Source: Eledone cirrhosa (taxonomy: Eukaryota). Taken from it: a DNA stretch of 64,000 bases. The position numbers and the translations under genes are program-made. This document shows positions 5,680 through 49,370 of the stretch, piece by piece. The stretch covers positions 12,152,001-12,216,000 of the forward strand of contig OZ024743.1 of NCBI GenBank assembly GCA_964016885.1. The letters are read 5' to 3'. Position 1 is the stretch's first letter. Each line of letters opens with the position of its first letter. The notes beneath the pieces were generated by a model. The model searched no databases and was not told where the DNA came from. It saw only the letters and a list, made by a program, of their open reading frames with translations.

Positions 5680-6040
5680 TATAAAGAAAAAGAGATGAAA
5701 TCGAAAATGCAACTGGAGTCTTATTTTTTTTTAAAATATATATATTTATTTGGTTCCTTTACCGGTTTCGCAGTTCTTCTGCTTTTCAAAAGGTGAGTTG
5801 AGATGGAGGCTCTGTGGTTTTTCTCACATATGAGAAAAACTACAGACCCTCCATCTCAACTCACCTTTTGAAAAGCAGAAGAACTGCGAAACCGGTAAAG
5901 GAACCAAATAAATATATATATTTAAAAAAAAAATAAGACTCCAGTTGCATTTTCGATTTCATCTCTTTTTCTTTATACTTTCACTCGTGTAGGACACCTC
6001 GGTTATTTTTCAATTTGTAAAAAAAACCTCACTTTCTAAT
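5680..6040 (+). mobile_element. Fold-back element with hammerhead (PLE pseudo-LTR type): ~147-bp inverted arms plus 3' tail, family A copy 1
   Basis: 5680-5826 is the near-perfect reverse complement of 5831-5977. An unpaired tail runs 5978-6040. (TA)n on both sides. Confidence 0.8.
5864..5901 (+). ncRNA. Minimal type I hammerhead, U3-A8 core variant (mirror copy 5756-5793 on minus)
   Basis: cctt-TTGAAAA-gcag(aagaa)ctgc-GAAA-ccgg-TA-aagg; palindromic stem III ACCGGT. Confidence 0.65.
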
Positions 6041-7426
6041 ATGTATATATATATATATATATGTATATATATATATATGTATATATATGTATATATATAT
6101 ATATATGTATATATATGTATATATATATATATGTATATATATATATATATATATATATGTATATATATATGTATATATATATATATATGTATATATATAT
6201 ATGTATATATATGTATATATATTTATACATATATATATGTATATATATATATATATATATATATATATACATATATATATGTATATATATATATACATAT
6301 ATATATATATATATATATATATACATATATATATATATATATATATATATATACATATATATATATACATATATATATACATATATATATATACATATAT
6401 ATATATACATTCTATACCACACAAATGTCTGTAAGTACCTCATCAACCCATTAACTTATTTCTTCTCAGTTGCTGTCATCACATGATCCTAAATCCAAGA
6501 ACATTTCAAAATACTACTACAATAGAACTTTACCTTTCTCTTTCCATAATTATAGTCAACATGTTTTATCTTTGTATGTATGTATTTGTACGAGTGTGTA
6601 TGGATGTGTATGTATATGTTTGTGTGCACATGCGTGTGTATATATATATGTGTATATATATATACATATGTATATATATTACCTCCTTAAGCTCTGTATT
6701 AACTTGCCCATTATTTAGCTTTGACAGTGTTGTCCTATACATGTATGTTATTGAGGATGGAAAGGAAAGACAGAACTCTCATCTAATTTAGACCACACAA
6801 ATTCTACTACAGTGATAAATGCTTCATCGGTCAGATAAAAACTGAATATTACGGCCACCTGACCTACATTGTTTATAAACACCAGCTTATCTTTACACTT
6901 GATATAATACACCCTACGACACTATTTACATGTCAATTTTATACATCTGCTTCATGTCAGCTAGTTTTACACGCTAAAATCTTAGATATACTATACCCCC
7001 CACCTAGTATGATGTTGTGATCATCTCAAATAATTTATTGATAGCATTGTTGATATAGTTGTTATTGTTCTAACTGAATGCCATTACTACTTCATATAGT
7101 AGCCTGTATATTCCTTTCATGCCTGTATTTTCTCTTTATTCTCGCAAGCTCCGAAGAACTGACTGGTTTGTATTGGTGATCGAGTAACGTGAAAACTAGC
7201 GGATAGCGATCTCTAGACCTACCAATTCAGAGAAACAATTGGCAGCAATGAGATTAAATACCTTTTTTGTATAGCAAACCGTGTCAATCTTCTTTCCTGA
7301 TTTATATATATATACATATATATGTATATATATATATATATATATATATATATATATATATATATATATATATATATATATATATATATATATATATATA
7401 TATATATATATATATATATATATATA

Positions 7427-7913
7427 TGGAAAGTTATATTTAAAATTGTTGGGTTACAACTAGTAAATATTTATAACTGATATAAAAGCACTCGACAAAT
7501 ATTTGGAGTATATTTACAATATTAAATAAATGGAAACTATATTTATAAAACCATATTTATTTCATTATATATATTTCGGGGATATCATATTAACAATATG
7601 CTATGCCTTCCTCAGACAAAATACAATATAAACAGTTTTATAGATAAATAGATTCGACATACCGTAACAACACCGACTTGCATTTGAAGAGGTTGGATTG
7701 GCATTTAAAGAGGTTGGATTTGACTGCCAATCCAACCTCTTCAAATGCAAGTCGGTGTTGTTACGGTATGTCGAATCTATTTATCTATAAAACTGTTTAT
7801 ATTGTATTTTGTCTGAGGAAGGCATAGCATATTGTTAATATGATATCCCCGAAATATATATAATGAAATAAATATGGTTTTATAAATATAGTTTCCATTT
7901 ATTTAATATTGTA
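7427..7913 (-). mobile_element. Fold-back hammerhead element, family B copy 1 (arms 7515-7703 / 7725-7913, tail 7427-7514)
   Basis: 189-bp inverted arms. HHR at 7805-7870 (+): tattttgt-CTGAGGA...GAAA-tatata-TA-atgaaata. The tail matches the reverse complement of 49285-49370. Confidence 0.8.
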
Positions 7914-7949
7914 TATATATATATGTATATATATATATGTATATATATA

Positions 7950-8645
7950 TGACGGTAACATAGACAACATAGAAATTAGAATATCTAAACATAGGAATGA
8001 CTCAGCAGATAGGCAAATCAGAGAGGCCAGTGAAATAGAAATTAGAAGACCAAAGCTAAACAGAAAGAATGAGTGGAACAACAACAACACCCAAACAAAC
8101 AACACTGACCTAAGAGAAGTATAAATAAGTAAATAAAATAAAATAAAATAAGATAAATAAATACATACACAAGCACAATAACATCAAGCACATAAACACA
8201 CACTAGTCACCCAGCAAACACAACACTATACACACTAGTCACACAACAAACATAACACTATACACACACGCAAACGCATACGCAAAGAAGACAAAATAAA
8301 ATAAACAAACAAGCAAATAAATAAATAAATATATAGACAGACTGAATAAAAAATGGCGTAGACATACAACACAACAGGAGGAAAAAATATAACACCACTG
8401 ACGATGTTGCAGATGTGCAACGAAAGATTTATGTAAATTATGTAAACTATATATATGTGTTTGTGTCTATATTGTATCTGTATTATTTTTGACCGTCGGT
8501 CAGTCAATGGCAACATTGAGGACCGAGTAAGTTAGATCGCAGATATAAAAGACAGCGAGAAGCGAAAACCAACCAAACAGTGAGTGTGTTCTGTTATTAA
8601 TTCTGGCAATATTACACAAATATGACCCTCCCCAAGTATAACAAT
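7950..8645 (+). mobile_element. 5'-truncated Penelope-like element 3' end (GIY-YIG C-terminus plus pseudo-LTR with hammerhead)
   Basis: RQIREASEIEIRRPKLNRKNE resembles the R..E...I...P.LN end of PLE GIY-YIG endonucleases. HHR at 8393-8436. The terminus atgaccctcccaa(a)gtataacaat is shared with the 21738-22286 element. Confidence 0.7.
8393..8436 (+). ncRNA. Minimal hammerhead ribozyme motif
   Basis: ca-CTGACGA-t-gttgca(gatg)tgcaac-GAAA-gatt-TA-tg; strong stem II, weak stem I. Confidence 0.6.
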
Positions 8646-46520: not shown

Positions 46521-47119
46521 GAAAATATATCAAATATCAGATTAAAAGTCTTATTTTAAATTGTCATTCGTTATTTTTATATTTTTATTTTATTTTTCCC
46601 TTGCTTTTTTTCTTCTCGATAAATTGACAGTACTCGTAAACATGTATTTAAAATAGTTAAATGAATGAATGAATAAAAATATATATAAATAAATAAATAA
46701 ATAGATAGATAGATAGGTAAAAGAGTAAAAGAATAAAAGAGTTAGATAGTTATATAGATAGATAGATAGATAGATAGATAGATAGATAGATAGATAGATA
46801 GATAGATAGATAGATAAGGAAATAAATAGATAGATAGATAGATAAGGAAATAAATAGATAGATATAGAAAGATAAATAGATAGATAGAAAAGTAGATAGA
46901 TAAATATATACATTATACACACTCACCGTTATCTATATTTAATTCTTACTTGATATTGTCTGTTGTATACAAATCTGTGTATAATATATATTGATATGTC
47001 TGTGTGTGCGGTGTGTTTATTTATCTGTATATAAACAAGCTATATTATCGTGAGTCCAGGTATGAAGATCGCGACTTTTACCGTGCTTGCTGTAATTTCG
47101 CTTTCATCTAAACTGACAG

Positions 47120-47850
47120 TTTGTTGCTGCTGTAGCTATTGCTGTTGCTGTTACTGTTTTTGTTGTGCCTGTTGCTTGTGGTGGTGGTGGTGGTGGTGGT
47201 GGTGGTGGTGGTAGAAGATGCTAGTGAAAGTGTTGTGCTAATGGTTATAGTGATAGTGGTAGTGAGTATAGTGGTAGTAATGATAATGATACTGCTGGTG
47301 GTGGCGGCGGCGGCGGTAGATGTTGGAGTGTGAGTGGGAGTGATGCAGGTATTAATGCTGGTGGGTGGCGGCGGCGGCGGTGGTGGTGGTGGTAGTGGGA
47401 GTGGGAGAGGTGCAGGGGTGATACTGCTGGTGGCGGCGGCGGCGGTAGATGTTGGAGTGTGAGTGGGAGTGATGCAGGTAATAATGCTGGTGGGTGGCGG
47501 CGGCGGCGGTGGTGGTGGTGGTAGTGGGAGTGGGAGTGGGAGAGGTGCAGGAGTGATACTGCTGGTGGCGGCGGCGGCGATAGTGGTAGTGGGAGTGGGA
47601 GTAATGCAAGTGATAATGGTGGCTTCTAGTGAAGGAGGTGGTAGTAAGAGTGATGCTGCTGCTGCGGCTGTTGTTGTTGTTGATAATGATGATGTTTGCT
47701 ATTGTTGTTAATGGTTGCTGCTGATAATAGTGGGTGTTATTGTTGTTGCTGCTTCTTGTGCTGCTGCTGCTGCTGCCGCTACTGCTGCTGATGTTGTAGG
47801 GGGAGGTGAAACATTTGACAATGCTGATGCAGTTTGTTGTTGTTGTTTTA
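47120..47850. repeat. GC-rich compound trinucleotide tract (GGT/GGC/GCT/GTT) with ~130-bp internal duplication
   Basis: gatactgctggtggcggcggcggc recurs at about 47290, 47420 and 47555. Confidence 0.85.
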
Positions 47851-49014
47851 TCTGTCAGCTACTCTTTTTCTCTCTGCCTCACTGCCTCTTCTCTTTCTCT
47901 CTCTCTCTCTCATATATATATATATATATATATATATATATATACAAGAGAGAGAGAAAGTGTGCATATATTTTTGTGACACCCTGTATATATATATATA
48001 TATATATATATATATATATATATATATACAGGGTGTCCCAAAAAATGTATGCAGACTTTGATTACCTGTAAATATTTATTAGAATGTTATTGAAGTGTGA
48101 ATCCATTTTTTGGGGGGACACCCTGTATATATGTGTGTGTGAGTGAGAGAGTGTATGTATGTATGTATGTATGTATGTATGTATGTATGTATGTATGTGT
48201 GTATGTATGTATGTATGTGTGTATGTATGTATGTATGTATGTATGTGTGTATGTATGTATGTATGTATGTGTGTATGTATGTATGTATGTATGTATGTGT
48301 GTATGTATGTATGTATGTGTATATATATATATATCTTGCAATATCTCAATATATATTCGATAAAGATAAATAGTATGAACAAAGTTGGAAGAGAAAGAAT
48401 CCAGTTACCTTCACTTATAAACAAACTGACGTACATACAAACACACATACACTCATATATATGTGTGTCCGTACACACACACACACTGAAACATACACAC
48501 ACACACATGCATACACACTGAAACACACACACACACACACACACACACACACATGCATTTCTGATCGCAGTCAGTTATAGAAAACACACACACTAACGCA
48601 CCCATACACTAATGCACACATACACTAACGCACACATACACTAACGCATACATACACTAACGCACACACAGTCTCATAATGTATGTTACACACAGACACA
48701 TAATCTGTTTTATAATCAAACACGCAGGCACACACATTCGTTTACATAGTCTTTTATACAAAACATATATACACACATAACTATCCCACGTCTATAAGCA
48801 AACTGATGCATCCGCGTACACAAACATTTAATGTTATACACTCAAATATACGCCCGCCAACATAATGTTTTACATACAATCTATTACCCCCCCCACACAC
48901 ACACACACATATGTATATATACATACATATATACATATAAACATACATATATATACACACATATACATATATATATATATATATACACTCAAGCACACAC
49001 ATATATATATATAT

Positions 49015-49370
49015 ATATACGATATTAATAAATGGAAACTATATTTATAAAACCATATTTATTTCATTATACATATTTCAGGGATACCAAATTAAATTAT
49101 GGTATGCCTTCATCAGACAAAATACAATATATAACAGTTTTACAAATAAATATTTGTAAAACTGTTATATATTGTATTTTGTCTGATGAAGGCATACCAT
49201 AATTTAATTTGGTATCCCTGAAATATGTATAATGAAATAAATATGGTTTTATAAATATAGTTTCCATTTATTAATATCGTATATCTACTCCAAATACTTG
49301 TCGAGTGCTTTATATCAGTTATAAAAATATTTACTTGTTGTATCCCAACAATTTAAATAGAACTTTTGCA
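49015..49370 (+). mobile_element. Fold-back hammerhead element, family B copy 2 (arms 49015-49148 / 49151-49284, tail to 49370)
   Basis: Perfect palindrome with a 2-nt loop. HHR at 49175-49239: tattttgt-CTGATGA-aggcatacca...tggtatccct-GAAA-tatgta-TA-atgaaata. Confidence 0.82.

What the first reader, a model, noticed from the sequence alone, without database searches (positions are those of the whole stretch)
5680..49370. Recurrent palindrome + tail + hammerhead architecture in at least five unrelated families within (TA)n
Seen: fold-backs at 5680-6040, 7427-7913, 9561-9941, 18083-18759, 21680-22286, 24690-24850 and 49015-49370 (older: 15444-15917). Most have 130-270-bp arms, an HHR in each arm and a 60-120-bp tail on one side only. 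Established: PLE pseudo-LTRs carry hammerheads, have a 3' tail extension and often form inverted pairs. Inference: these are minimal PLE insertions, or non-autonomous hairpin derivatives, that target TA microsatellites. With the tandem copies this gives more than 20 HHR motifs in 64 kb.
Basis: partly seen in the sequence, partly recalled or inferred. Interest (0 to 1): 0.75.

Follow-up and report, generated by a model that had tools for sequence, protein, structure and literature searches.

The report
Head-to-head Penelope retrotransposon insertion ends
These mirror-image DNA cassettes, most with a predicted hammerhead ribozyme in each arm, are the truncated back-to-back ends of several Penelope-type jumping-gene families sitting in TA repeats, a layout already described; their near-strict pairing of one long end with one short end likely records two copying reactions started on the same RNA.

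Summary
The observation mostly holds. Six of the seven named fold-backs have a hammerhead motif in each arm and a one-sided tail. 24690 is a decayed partial copy; the older 15444 copy has a single degraded motif. The window holds 19 (strict) to 24 (relaxed) motifs against under 0.2 in shuffles. Four families (5680/9561, 7427/49015, 21680, 24690) are 3' ends of protein-coding Penelope-like elements (Neptune-like, Hydra-like); 18044 and the 468-bp array are non-coding tandem retrozymes with the same ends. In three families sampled genome-wide, 84 of 90 arms end at one of two fixed sites, 77 of 90 abut (TA)n (background 12%), centres vary from 0 to 4 kb, and 72 of 75 pairs join a long end to a short end. 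So they are insertion products, not hairpin families. Inverted pLTR plus tail, opposed hammerheads, the U3-A8 core and two internal RT start sites are published. Likely mechanism: both target strands primed at two sites on one RNA. One family's short palindromes likely end at a capped transcription start. This scan reached the same reading earlier on other DNA, including this genome.

The parts
5680..6037 (.). Family A insertion: short-end arm (- strand, 5680-5828) head-to-head with long-end arm (+, 5829-6037); tail 5978-6037; predicted U3-A8 hammerheads at 5760-5789 (-) and 5868-5897 (+)
   Evidence: 3' end of a Neptune-like PLE (L250)
7428..7911 (.). Family B insertion: long-end arm on - strand with tail at about 7428-7512, short-end arm on +; hammerhead cores at 7615 (-) and 7813 (+); 21-bp duplication at the centre
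   Evidence: 89-91% identical to the 49015 copy
9561..9941 (.). Family A insertion, second copy; hammerheads at 9641-9670 (-) and 9770-9799 (+); 7-bp unit repeated 3.7 times at the centre
15444..15952 (.). Old family insertion: longer short-end arm on - strand carrying one degraded hammerhead (about 15580-15630); shorter arm on + with tail of about 33 nt (15918-15952). No ORF link found
18044..18763 (.). Family C insertion (piece of a non-coding 591-bp tandem retrozyme unit): long-end arm on - strand 18574-18044 with tail 18044-18201, short-end arm on + 18575-18763; predicted U3-A8 hammerheads with long helix II, cores at 18359 (-) and 18606 (+)
21680..22286 (.). Family D insertion: long-end arm on - strand with tail 21680-21737, short-end arm on +; hammerheads at 21907-21941 (-) and 22081-22115 (+)
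   Evidence: 3' end of a Neptune-like PLE (L152, L153, L155)
24690..24851 (.). Family E, decayed insertion: short-end arm 24733-24851 (+) with one hammerhead at 24738-24803; partial inverted arm 24690-24730 bordered by (GA)n
   Evidence: Hydra-like endonuclease frame 1.1 kb upstream in L232
24870..27648 (-). Family F: 5.8 tandem copies of a non-coding 468-bp retrozyme unit with six hammerheads; long end at 24870, inverted short-end stub at 27591-27648
49020..49369 (.). Family B insertion: short-end arm on -, long-end arm on + with tail 49285-49369; hammerheads at 49068-49116 (-) and 49183-49231 (+)
   Evidence: 3' end of a Hydra-like PLE (L144)
59808..60189 (-). Family F solo long-end arm with hammerhead at 60130-60160
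12847..13695 (+). 3' part of a Hydra-like PLE: GIY-YIG-like endonuclease frame with CxCx5C linker, 3' UTR with hammerhead core at 13632, ending in (TC)n(TA)n

Best explanation
The palindromes are 5'-truncated, head-to-head insertions of at least four protein-coding Penelope-like retrotransposon families and of non-coding tandem hammerhead repeats (retrozymes) with the same ends, likely made when the element's enzyme cuts both strands of a (TA)n target and copies one RNA twice from two fixed internal start sites. Shown: the link to RT/endonuclease ORFs, two fixed 3' ends per family, (TA)n flanks, variable centres, the long-end/short-end pairing, and arms more alike to each other than to other copies. 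Inferred: a dimeric RT-GIY-YIG protein nicks both strands of the self-complementary TA repeat; one 3'-OH primes at the distal site (long arm, with tail), the other at the proximal site (short arm); the tail is the RNA between the two sites; the two cDNAs stop independently and are joined at short inverted microhomologies. Each arm carries a hammerhead only because the motif lies within about 50-200 nt of the proximal site. In family A many cDNAs likely run off the capped 5' end of a transcript started in the pseudo-LTR, which gives the many near-perfect 350-bp palindromes; these lack the upstream TATA box and would be dead ends. The hammerhead likely plays no part in making the palindrome.
For: ORF links: A, RT+GIY-YIG frame contiguous with the arm in L250 (Pfam GIY-YIG E 5e-7, RVT_1 E 1e-6); B, RT+EN frame in L143-L146, 37% identical to the Hydra-like protein of L158; D, frames in L147-L156, L159, L160 (RVT_1 E 2e-4); E, EN frame in L232 whose 3' UTR is shared with other E loci. 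Exact-motif counts: A 12,684, B 3,990, D 9,103, F 10,791; reversed controls 0. In 90 arms picked by a hammerhead motif, 84 end at one of two sites and 77 have (TA)4 within 16 nt, against 11.6% of random places in the same loci. Pairs: 72 of 75 long+short (69 by script, 3 re-read by eye), 1 short+short, 2 unclassifiable; C 8 of 8 and F 4 of 4 with both ends visible. Among 29 pairs with a spacer of 100 bp or more, the short-end arm is the longer in 14, the long-end arm in 12, 3 unassigned. Arm-to-arm divergence is 3.2%, 0.8%, 0.8% (A, B, D) against 5.2%, 3.7%, 3.5% between copies. Family A: 21 of 60 arms stop within 5 nt of one site with a TATA box 30 nt upstream; where the templated C is absent, the preceding base is G in 50 of the first 100 of 844 matches (hand count). 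In vitro, the lizard PLE protein cuts and extends both strands, starts at two internal sites that bound the tail, is predicted to be a dimer and does not need ribozyme cleavage (PMC11167929).
Against: PMC11167929 saw no difference in start site between the two strands and no homology between start site and cut DNA, whereas here pairing is near-strict and the short ends of all seven families show about 1-5 nt that match the TA flank (read by eye). Long palindromes suffer central deletions (general knowledge), so the 14 'short arm longer' cases could be trimmed snap-back products; similar arms fit snap-back and gene conversion equally well. The family A hot spot is also an imperfect 8-bp palindrome, and family B's cluster sits on one, so microhomology joining could explain part of the clustering; many of the 50 G cases have a templated or repeat-derived reading (only 8 of 45 hits joined straight to TA show a clear extra G). 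Pfam found nothing in the B, E and L158 proteins. No ORF was found for the old family (19 relatives, 1.5 kb flanks) and C and F show no DNA match to the five PLE ends tested. Samples for A, B, D are the first hits on one chromosome. No cleavage, expression or enzyme assay was possible.
Confidence: 0.75

Rival explanations
1. Same elements, but snap-back (self-priming): one cDNA primed at the distal site folds back, copies itself, and the endonuclease resolves the hairpin at the TA-like proximal site.
For: Explains strict long+short pairing, near-identical arms and TA-like bases at the short end. Self-priming was proposed from palindromic junctions in rotifer Penelope elements (PMC3846280, passages); endonuclease resolution was proposed for the tail (PMC8557442).
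Against: Predicts the short-end arm is always inside the long-end arm; it is longer, by 0.25 to over 3 kb, in 14 of 26 assignable pairs, and in family C it holds extra tandem units in 3 insertions. Solo short-end arms exist. The purified enzyme extends both strands (PMC11167929).
Confidence: 0.17
2. Non-autonomous hairpin elements (MITE-like or viroid-like ambisense RNAs) that move as fixed palindromes with two ribozymes.
For: Family A has a strong mode of near-perfect palindromes of about 350 bp; motifs on both strands.
Against: Centres differ base by base even within the mode and arms carry locus-specific shared variants; a continuum runs up to near full-length coding elements; many copies have no second arm.
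Confidence: 0.05
3. Fold-back read or assembly artefacts.
For: The specific junction at 18574/18575 was not bridged by any listed short-read piece (most pieces not shown).
Against: Arms differ by 1-7% (21% in the old copy), are asymmetric with fixed family-specific ends at dozens of loci, and contain later insertions. Family A fold-back joints and the short end running into TA appear in Illumina raw reads of another study and in short-read contigs (family level, 1-2 read starts).
Confidence: 0.03

Closest known systems
Complex insertions of endonuclease-bearing Penelope-like elements (PMC8557442 passages; PMC3846280 passages)
   Same: 5' truncation, inverted truncated copy at the 5' end, tail at one end only, hammerhead in the pseudo-LTR, microsatellite targets.
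   Different: Tails here are 33-158 nt against the 30-40 bp described; I found no count of long/short pairing in the passages read.
Hydra clade PLEs (PMC8557442, section 11 passages)
   Same: Families B, E and the 12847 element: C-terminal endonuclease with CxCx5C linker, hammerheads, (TA)n insertion; DKT and an RW motif in the 12847 family (L157).
   Different: DKT and RWK were not found in the one N-terminal B region examined; no tree against named Hydra proteins was built.
Neptune-type PLEs (PMC8557442 passages)
   Same: Families A and D: C-terminal GIY-YIG preceded by a CX4CxxC linker.
   Different: Neptune is paraphyletic in that paper; D has DKSG in place of DKG; placement not tested by phylogeny.
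Poseidon_Ac of the green anole (PMC11167929, parts 1-2 of 4 read)
   Same: Two internal RT start sites bounding the tail; both strands cut and extended; AT-rich targets.
   Different: No strand preference for start site and no target homology in vitro; here near-strict long/short pairing and short TA-like matches. Different clade.
Minimal hammerheads of metazoan PLEs (PMC4209133 passages)
   Same: Type I, short palindromic helix III, extra base before helix II; pairs 100-700 bp apart on opposite strands and the U3-A8 core were reported in Schistosoma.
   Different: U3-A8 here is in two unrelated families (A, C); C has a 57-nt helix II region.
Non-LTR retrozymes (PMC7229834 passages; bioRxiv 10.64898/2026.07.22.740005 introduction, passages, discussion)
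   Same: Families C (591 bp) and F (468 bp): non-coding tandem units with one type I hammerhead each.
   Different: Here the arrays carry PLE-type long and short ends, head-to-head arms and TA flanks; both papers treat PLE mobilisation as a hypothesis from co-occurrence or phylogeny. Units are longer than the 170-400 nt circles described and the hammerheads are of the minimal type.

Membership tests
EN+ Penelope-like elements (A, B, D, E) | Single ORF with RT and C-terminal GIY-YIG endonuclease upstream of the terminal repeat | tested here: met
   A, B, D: RT and EN frames in longer copies. E: only the EN part seen, recognised by motif.
EN+ Penelope-like elements (A, B, D, E) | Hammerhead motif in the pseudo-LTR | tested here: met
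   Descriptor hits 19-24 against under 0.2 in shuffles. Cleavage untested.
EN+ Penelope-like elements (A, B, D, E) | 5' truncation, inverted copy, one-sided tail | tested here: met
EN+ Penelope-like elements (A, B, D, E) | Direct 5' pseudo-LTR (partial tandem) before a full-length ORF | tested here: inconclusive
   No copy with a direct 5' pseudo-LTR was seen among the long loci fetched; no targeted search.
EN+ Penelope-like elements (A, B, D, E) | RT groups with PLE and telomerase RTs in a phylogeny | not tested
   No reference proteins were fetched.
Hydra clade (B, E, 12847 element) | CxCx5C linker before the endonuclease | tested here: met
   Present in B (L143, L144) and the 12847 family; in E the frame is cut at the locus edge after the second cysteine.
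Hydra clade (B, E, 12847 element) | DKT and RWK motifs | tested here: inconclusive
   DKT and RWR in L157 (12847 family); neither found in L146 (B); E N-terminus not fetched.
Hydra clade (B, E, 12847 element) | Insertion into (TA)n | tested here: met
   27 of 30 B arms; E short ends run into TA.
Neptune-type (A, D) | CX2-5CxxC linker upstream of a C-terminal GIY-YIG | tested here: met
   Read in L250 and L141 (A) and L152, L149 (D). Clade placement not tested.
Non-LTR retrozymes (C, F) | Tandem non-coding units, each with a type I hammerhead | tested here: met
   591-bp and about 468-bp periods genome-wide; longest ATG frames 75 and 74 codons.
Non-LTR retrozymes (C, F) | Self-cleavage and circular RNA expression | not testable with these tools
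   Needs RNA; no assay possible.
MITE-like non-autonomous hairpin element | Fixed length and fixed internal junction shared by copies | tested here: not met
   Centres and arm lengths vary.

The most novel reading that the evidence does not exclude
These insertions are a genomic readout of the Penelope mechanism: an RT-endonuclease dimer loads on one RNA at two fixed sites, primes one from each strand of a cut (TA)n, and yields strictly long-end/short-end pairs. Retrozyme arrays carry the same footprint in multi-unit arms, so they are inserted as multimers by Penelope enzymes copying a circular or multimeric RNA, and the shortest palindromes mark capped transcription starts.
Probability: 0.5. 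Interest if true: 0.58.

Novelty: new member of a known kind. Interest (0 to 1): 0.3.

Why it matters
The architecture itself is ordinary for Penelope-like elements. What adds value is the statistics this genome allows: thousands of young copies per family show a near-strict long-end/short-end rule that any model of Penelope integration must explain, and that can be tested with the existing in vitro system. The same footprint on non-coding tandem hammerhead repeats is direct structural support for the published hypothesis that retrozymes ride on Penelope enzymes. It also warns that opposed hammerheads in such palindromes are no sign of an ambisense replicating RNA.

Tried and rejected
Rfam scan: listed matches were miRNA models on hairpins and microsatellites, all below gathering score; no hammerhead among the 150 of 336 shown. 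The repeat finder was swamped by TA arrays. First descriptor missed motifs with a mismatch at the base of helix II (10 hits). DNA search with family B returned nothing because common words are skipped; replaced by a pattern search. Top-hit searches for A, C, D, E and the old family favour copies covering the whole query, so pair and flank counts for A, B, D use pattern-picked loci. Rows set aside before the pair count: L265 (duplicate of L140), L204 (arm cut by another insertion), L260 and L261 (several insertions); three D pairs in the first-100 list were not fetched. My first reading of the 15444 tail (left side) was wrong. Motif-based end finder for F failed; BLAST used instead, with many spurious TA-rich hits ignored. 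Sequencing runs: no RNA holder listed. The 18574/18575 junction was not bridged in the listed pieces: inconclusive. Single-sequence folds of motifs gave z-scores from -2.0 to +0.2; only family C folded as a three-way junction, so folding energy is no support. C and F against five PLE ends: no DNA match. Old family: no RT or EN frame within 1.5 kb.
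Full report
Observation. After masking simple repeats, self-BLAST of the window recovers all eight fold-backs. 5680 and 9561 are one family (A), 7427 and 49015 another (B); 18044 (C), 21680 (D), 24690 (E) and 15444 (old) are separate. A type I hammerhead descriptor that allows the C3-G8 or U3-A8 core finds 19 motifs against a mean of 0.125 in 40 shuffles; a relaxed version finds 24 against 0.17 in 30 shuffles. Six fold-backs have a motif in each arm. 24690 has one, and its apparent tail is only the remainder of a short-end arm. 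15444 has one degraded motif in its spacer; the motif passes the descriptor in 4 of 19 relatives, and the tail lies on the right. A and C carry the U3-A8 core. All ribozyme calls are predictions.

What the families are. The window lies in a 3.0-Gb animal assembly, not identified here. Exact motif counts are 12,684 (A), 3,990 (B), 9,103 (D) and 10,791 (F, the 468-bp array), with reversed controls at 0. Longer copies continue upstream into coding sequence. A: RT and GIY-YIG frames with a CX4CxxC linker, then about 1 to 1.4 kb of 3' UTR (L250, L141). D: RT, CX4CxxC linker and endonuclease ending about 200 bp before the arm. B: RT and endonuclease with a CxCx5C linker (L143-L146), 37% identical over 537 residues to the protein of the element whose 3' end lies at window 12847; that family shows DKT and RWR, close to the Hydra clade definition in PMC8557442 (passages). 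E: a similar endonuclease frame 1.1 kb upstream in L232, with the intervening UTR shared by other E loci. Pfam recognised A and D but not B, E or L158. C and F are tandem units of 591 and about 468 bp without long frames, i.e. non-LTR retrozymes by the sequence criteria of PMC7229834 (passages) and the 2026 preprint.

Anatomy across copies. For A, B and D I took the first 30 loci of each hammerhead pattern search, which does not select for a tail. 84 of 90 arms end at one of two fixed places per family, and 77 of 90 are followed by (TA)4 within 16 nt against 11.6% of random places in the same loci. Adding pairs fetched from the first-100 lists gave 75 distinct head-to-head pairs: 72 join a long end to a short end (69 by script, 3 re-read by eye), one joins two short ends, two are unclassifiable. 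Independent choice of site would give about half. C shows the same in 8 of 8 insertions with both ends visible (query biased to long ends) and F in 4 of 4 plus the window array. Spacers range from 0 to about 4 kb and more in one compound case. Among 29 pairs with 100 bp or more of spacer, the extra sequence belongs to the short-end arm in 14, the long-end arm in 12, and is unassigned in 3. Arms of a pair are closer to each other than to other copies (3.2 vs 5.2%, 0.8 vs 3.7%, 0.8 vs 3.5%) and share minor alleles.

Mechanism. PMC11167929 (parts 1-2 of 4) shows that a purified PLE protein cuts and extends both strands of AT-rich DNA, starts at two internal RNA sites that bound the tail, is predicted to dimerise, and does not need ribozyme cleavage. 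The simplest reading of my counts is that both events happen on one RNA, one site per strand, and that the two cDNAs are then joined (inference). Snap-back, proposed in PMC3846280 (passages), explains pairing and arm identity but needs 14 later deletions; I keep it at 0.17. In family A, 21 of 60 arms stop within 5 nt of one site, solo copies included, and a TATA box lies 30 nt upstream (the spacing rule is recalled). Where the templated base before that site is missing, G is found in 50 of the first 100 of 844 matches, and in 8 of 45 hits joined straight to TA, with 2 more ambiguous (hand count). This fits copying of a cap (recalled from LINE-1 work) but is only suggestive, as the site is also an imperfect palindrome. 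D ends cluster weakly near motifs I recall as NRF1 and YY1 sites, and B ends cluster on an 8-bp palindrome.

Artefact check. Arms are diverged, asymmetric and end at family-specific sites. Fold-back joints of family A and its short end running into TA occur in short-read contigs and in raw reads of a second study, at family level only. The single junction tested in C was not bridged in the listed pieces.

Comparison. Inverted truncated copies, one-sided tails and TA targeting are in PMC8557442; opposed minimal hammerheads 100-700 bp apart and the U3-A8 core in PMC4209133 (passages). Searches returned no paper whose passages I read reporting the long/short pairing count or PLE-type ends on retrozyme arrays; the library lacks most subscription journals, and I read no supplements, where named Hydra or Neptune families from related species may match these. 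Earlier notes of this scan gave the same reading on this and other genomes, including the pairing rule; none lay near this window.

Verdict. Real, abundant, and explained: new families of known kinds with a known insertion layout. The residual interest is the pairing rule, the retrozyme footprint and the likely start-site run-off. Interest 0.3.

Noticed in passing
window 946-5245: LTR retrotransposon on the - strand inside TA repeats: 270-bp direct repeats 92% identical, RT and integrase frames broken into pieces.
   Followed up: partly
window 12847-13695: 3' end of a very abundant Hydra-like PLE (58,292 first-look candidates, 150 scored at 89-94% identity) with a weak hammerhead at 13632.
   Followed up: yes
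window 7952-8648: Older relative of family D: endonuclease C-terminus-like text, decayed hammerhead, ending at the same short-end sequence followed by TA (read).
   Followed up: no
window 32061-32345 (-): Fragment of a PLE RT N-terminus (DKG-region motif) between TA arrays, resembling family A's protein; adjacent to the hammerhead stub at 32690-32875, possibly the two halves of one insertion split by a TA expansion.
   Followed up: no
window 32702-32871, 38074-38243, 38523-38692: A further hammerhead family as solo stubs in TA; the two copies at 38 kb are identical together with their TA context (449-bp period), a recent local duplication or an assembly repeat.
   Followed up: no
window 37041-37258, 45262-45526, 43331-43434: Further fold-backs without a descriptor hit; 37041 is TA-flanked with a short left extension, 45262 is old (72%).
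   Followed up: no
window 34014-34063 (-), 13860-13895 (+): Decayed hammerhead-like motifs; the first resembles family B in build but has an uncompensated core change.
   Followed up: no
window 7680-7720 and 9703-9728: Short tandem duplications (21 bp x2, 7 bp x3.7) right at palindrome centres, suggesting RT stutter or template jumps at the join.
   Followed up: no
window 33090-33497 (+): C-terminal fragment of a non-LTR element with a restriction-like endonuclease appearance (by recall), followed by (ACAT)n.
   Followed up: no
window 22760-23325: 565-bp stretch between TA arrays bounded by a 31-bp direct repeat; unexplained.
   Followed up: no
window 24321-24463, 28694-29042, 35175-35368, 41762-41987, 57827-58018, 61818-62038: Many copies of a dispersed short repeat, probably a SINE family.
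   Followed up: no
L006, L155: L006 is a family A pair with long ends on both sides (top-hit set), an exception to the pairing rule; L155 is a family D pair with arms of about 2.5 kb or more of coding sequence.
   Followed up: partly
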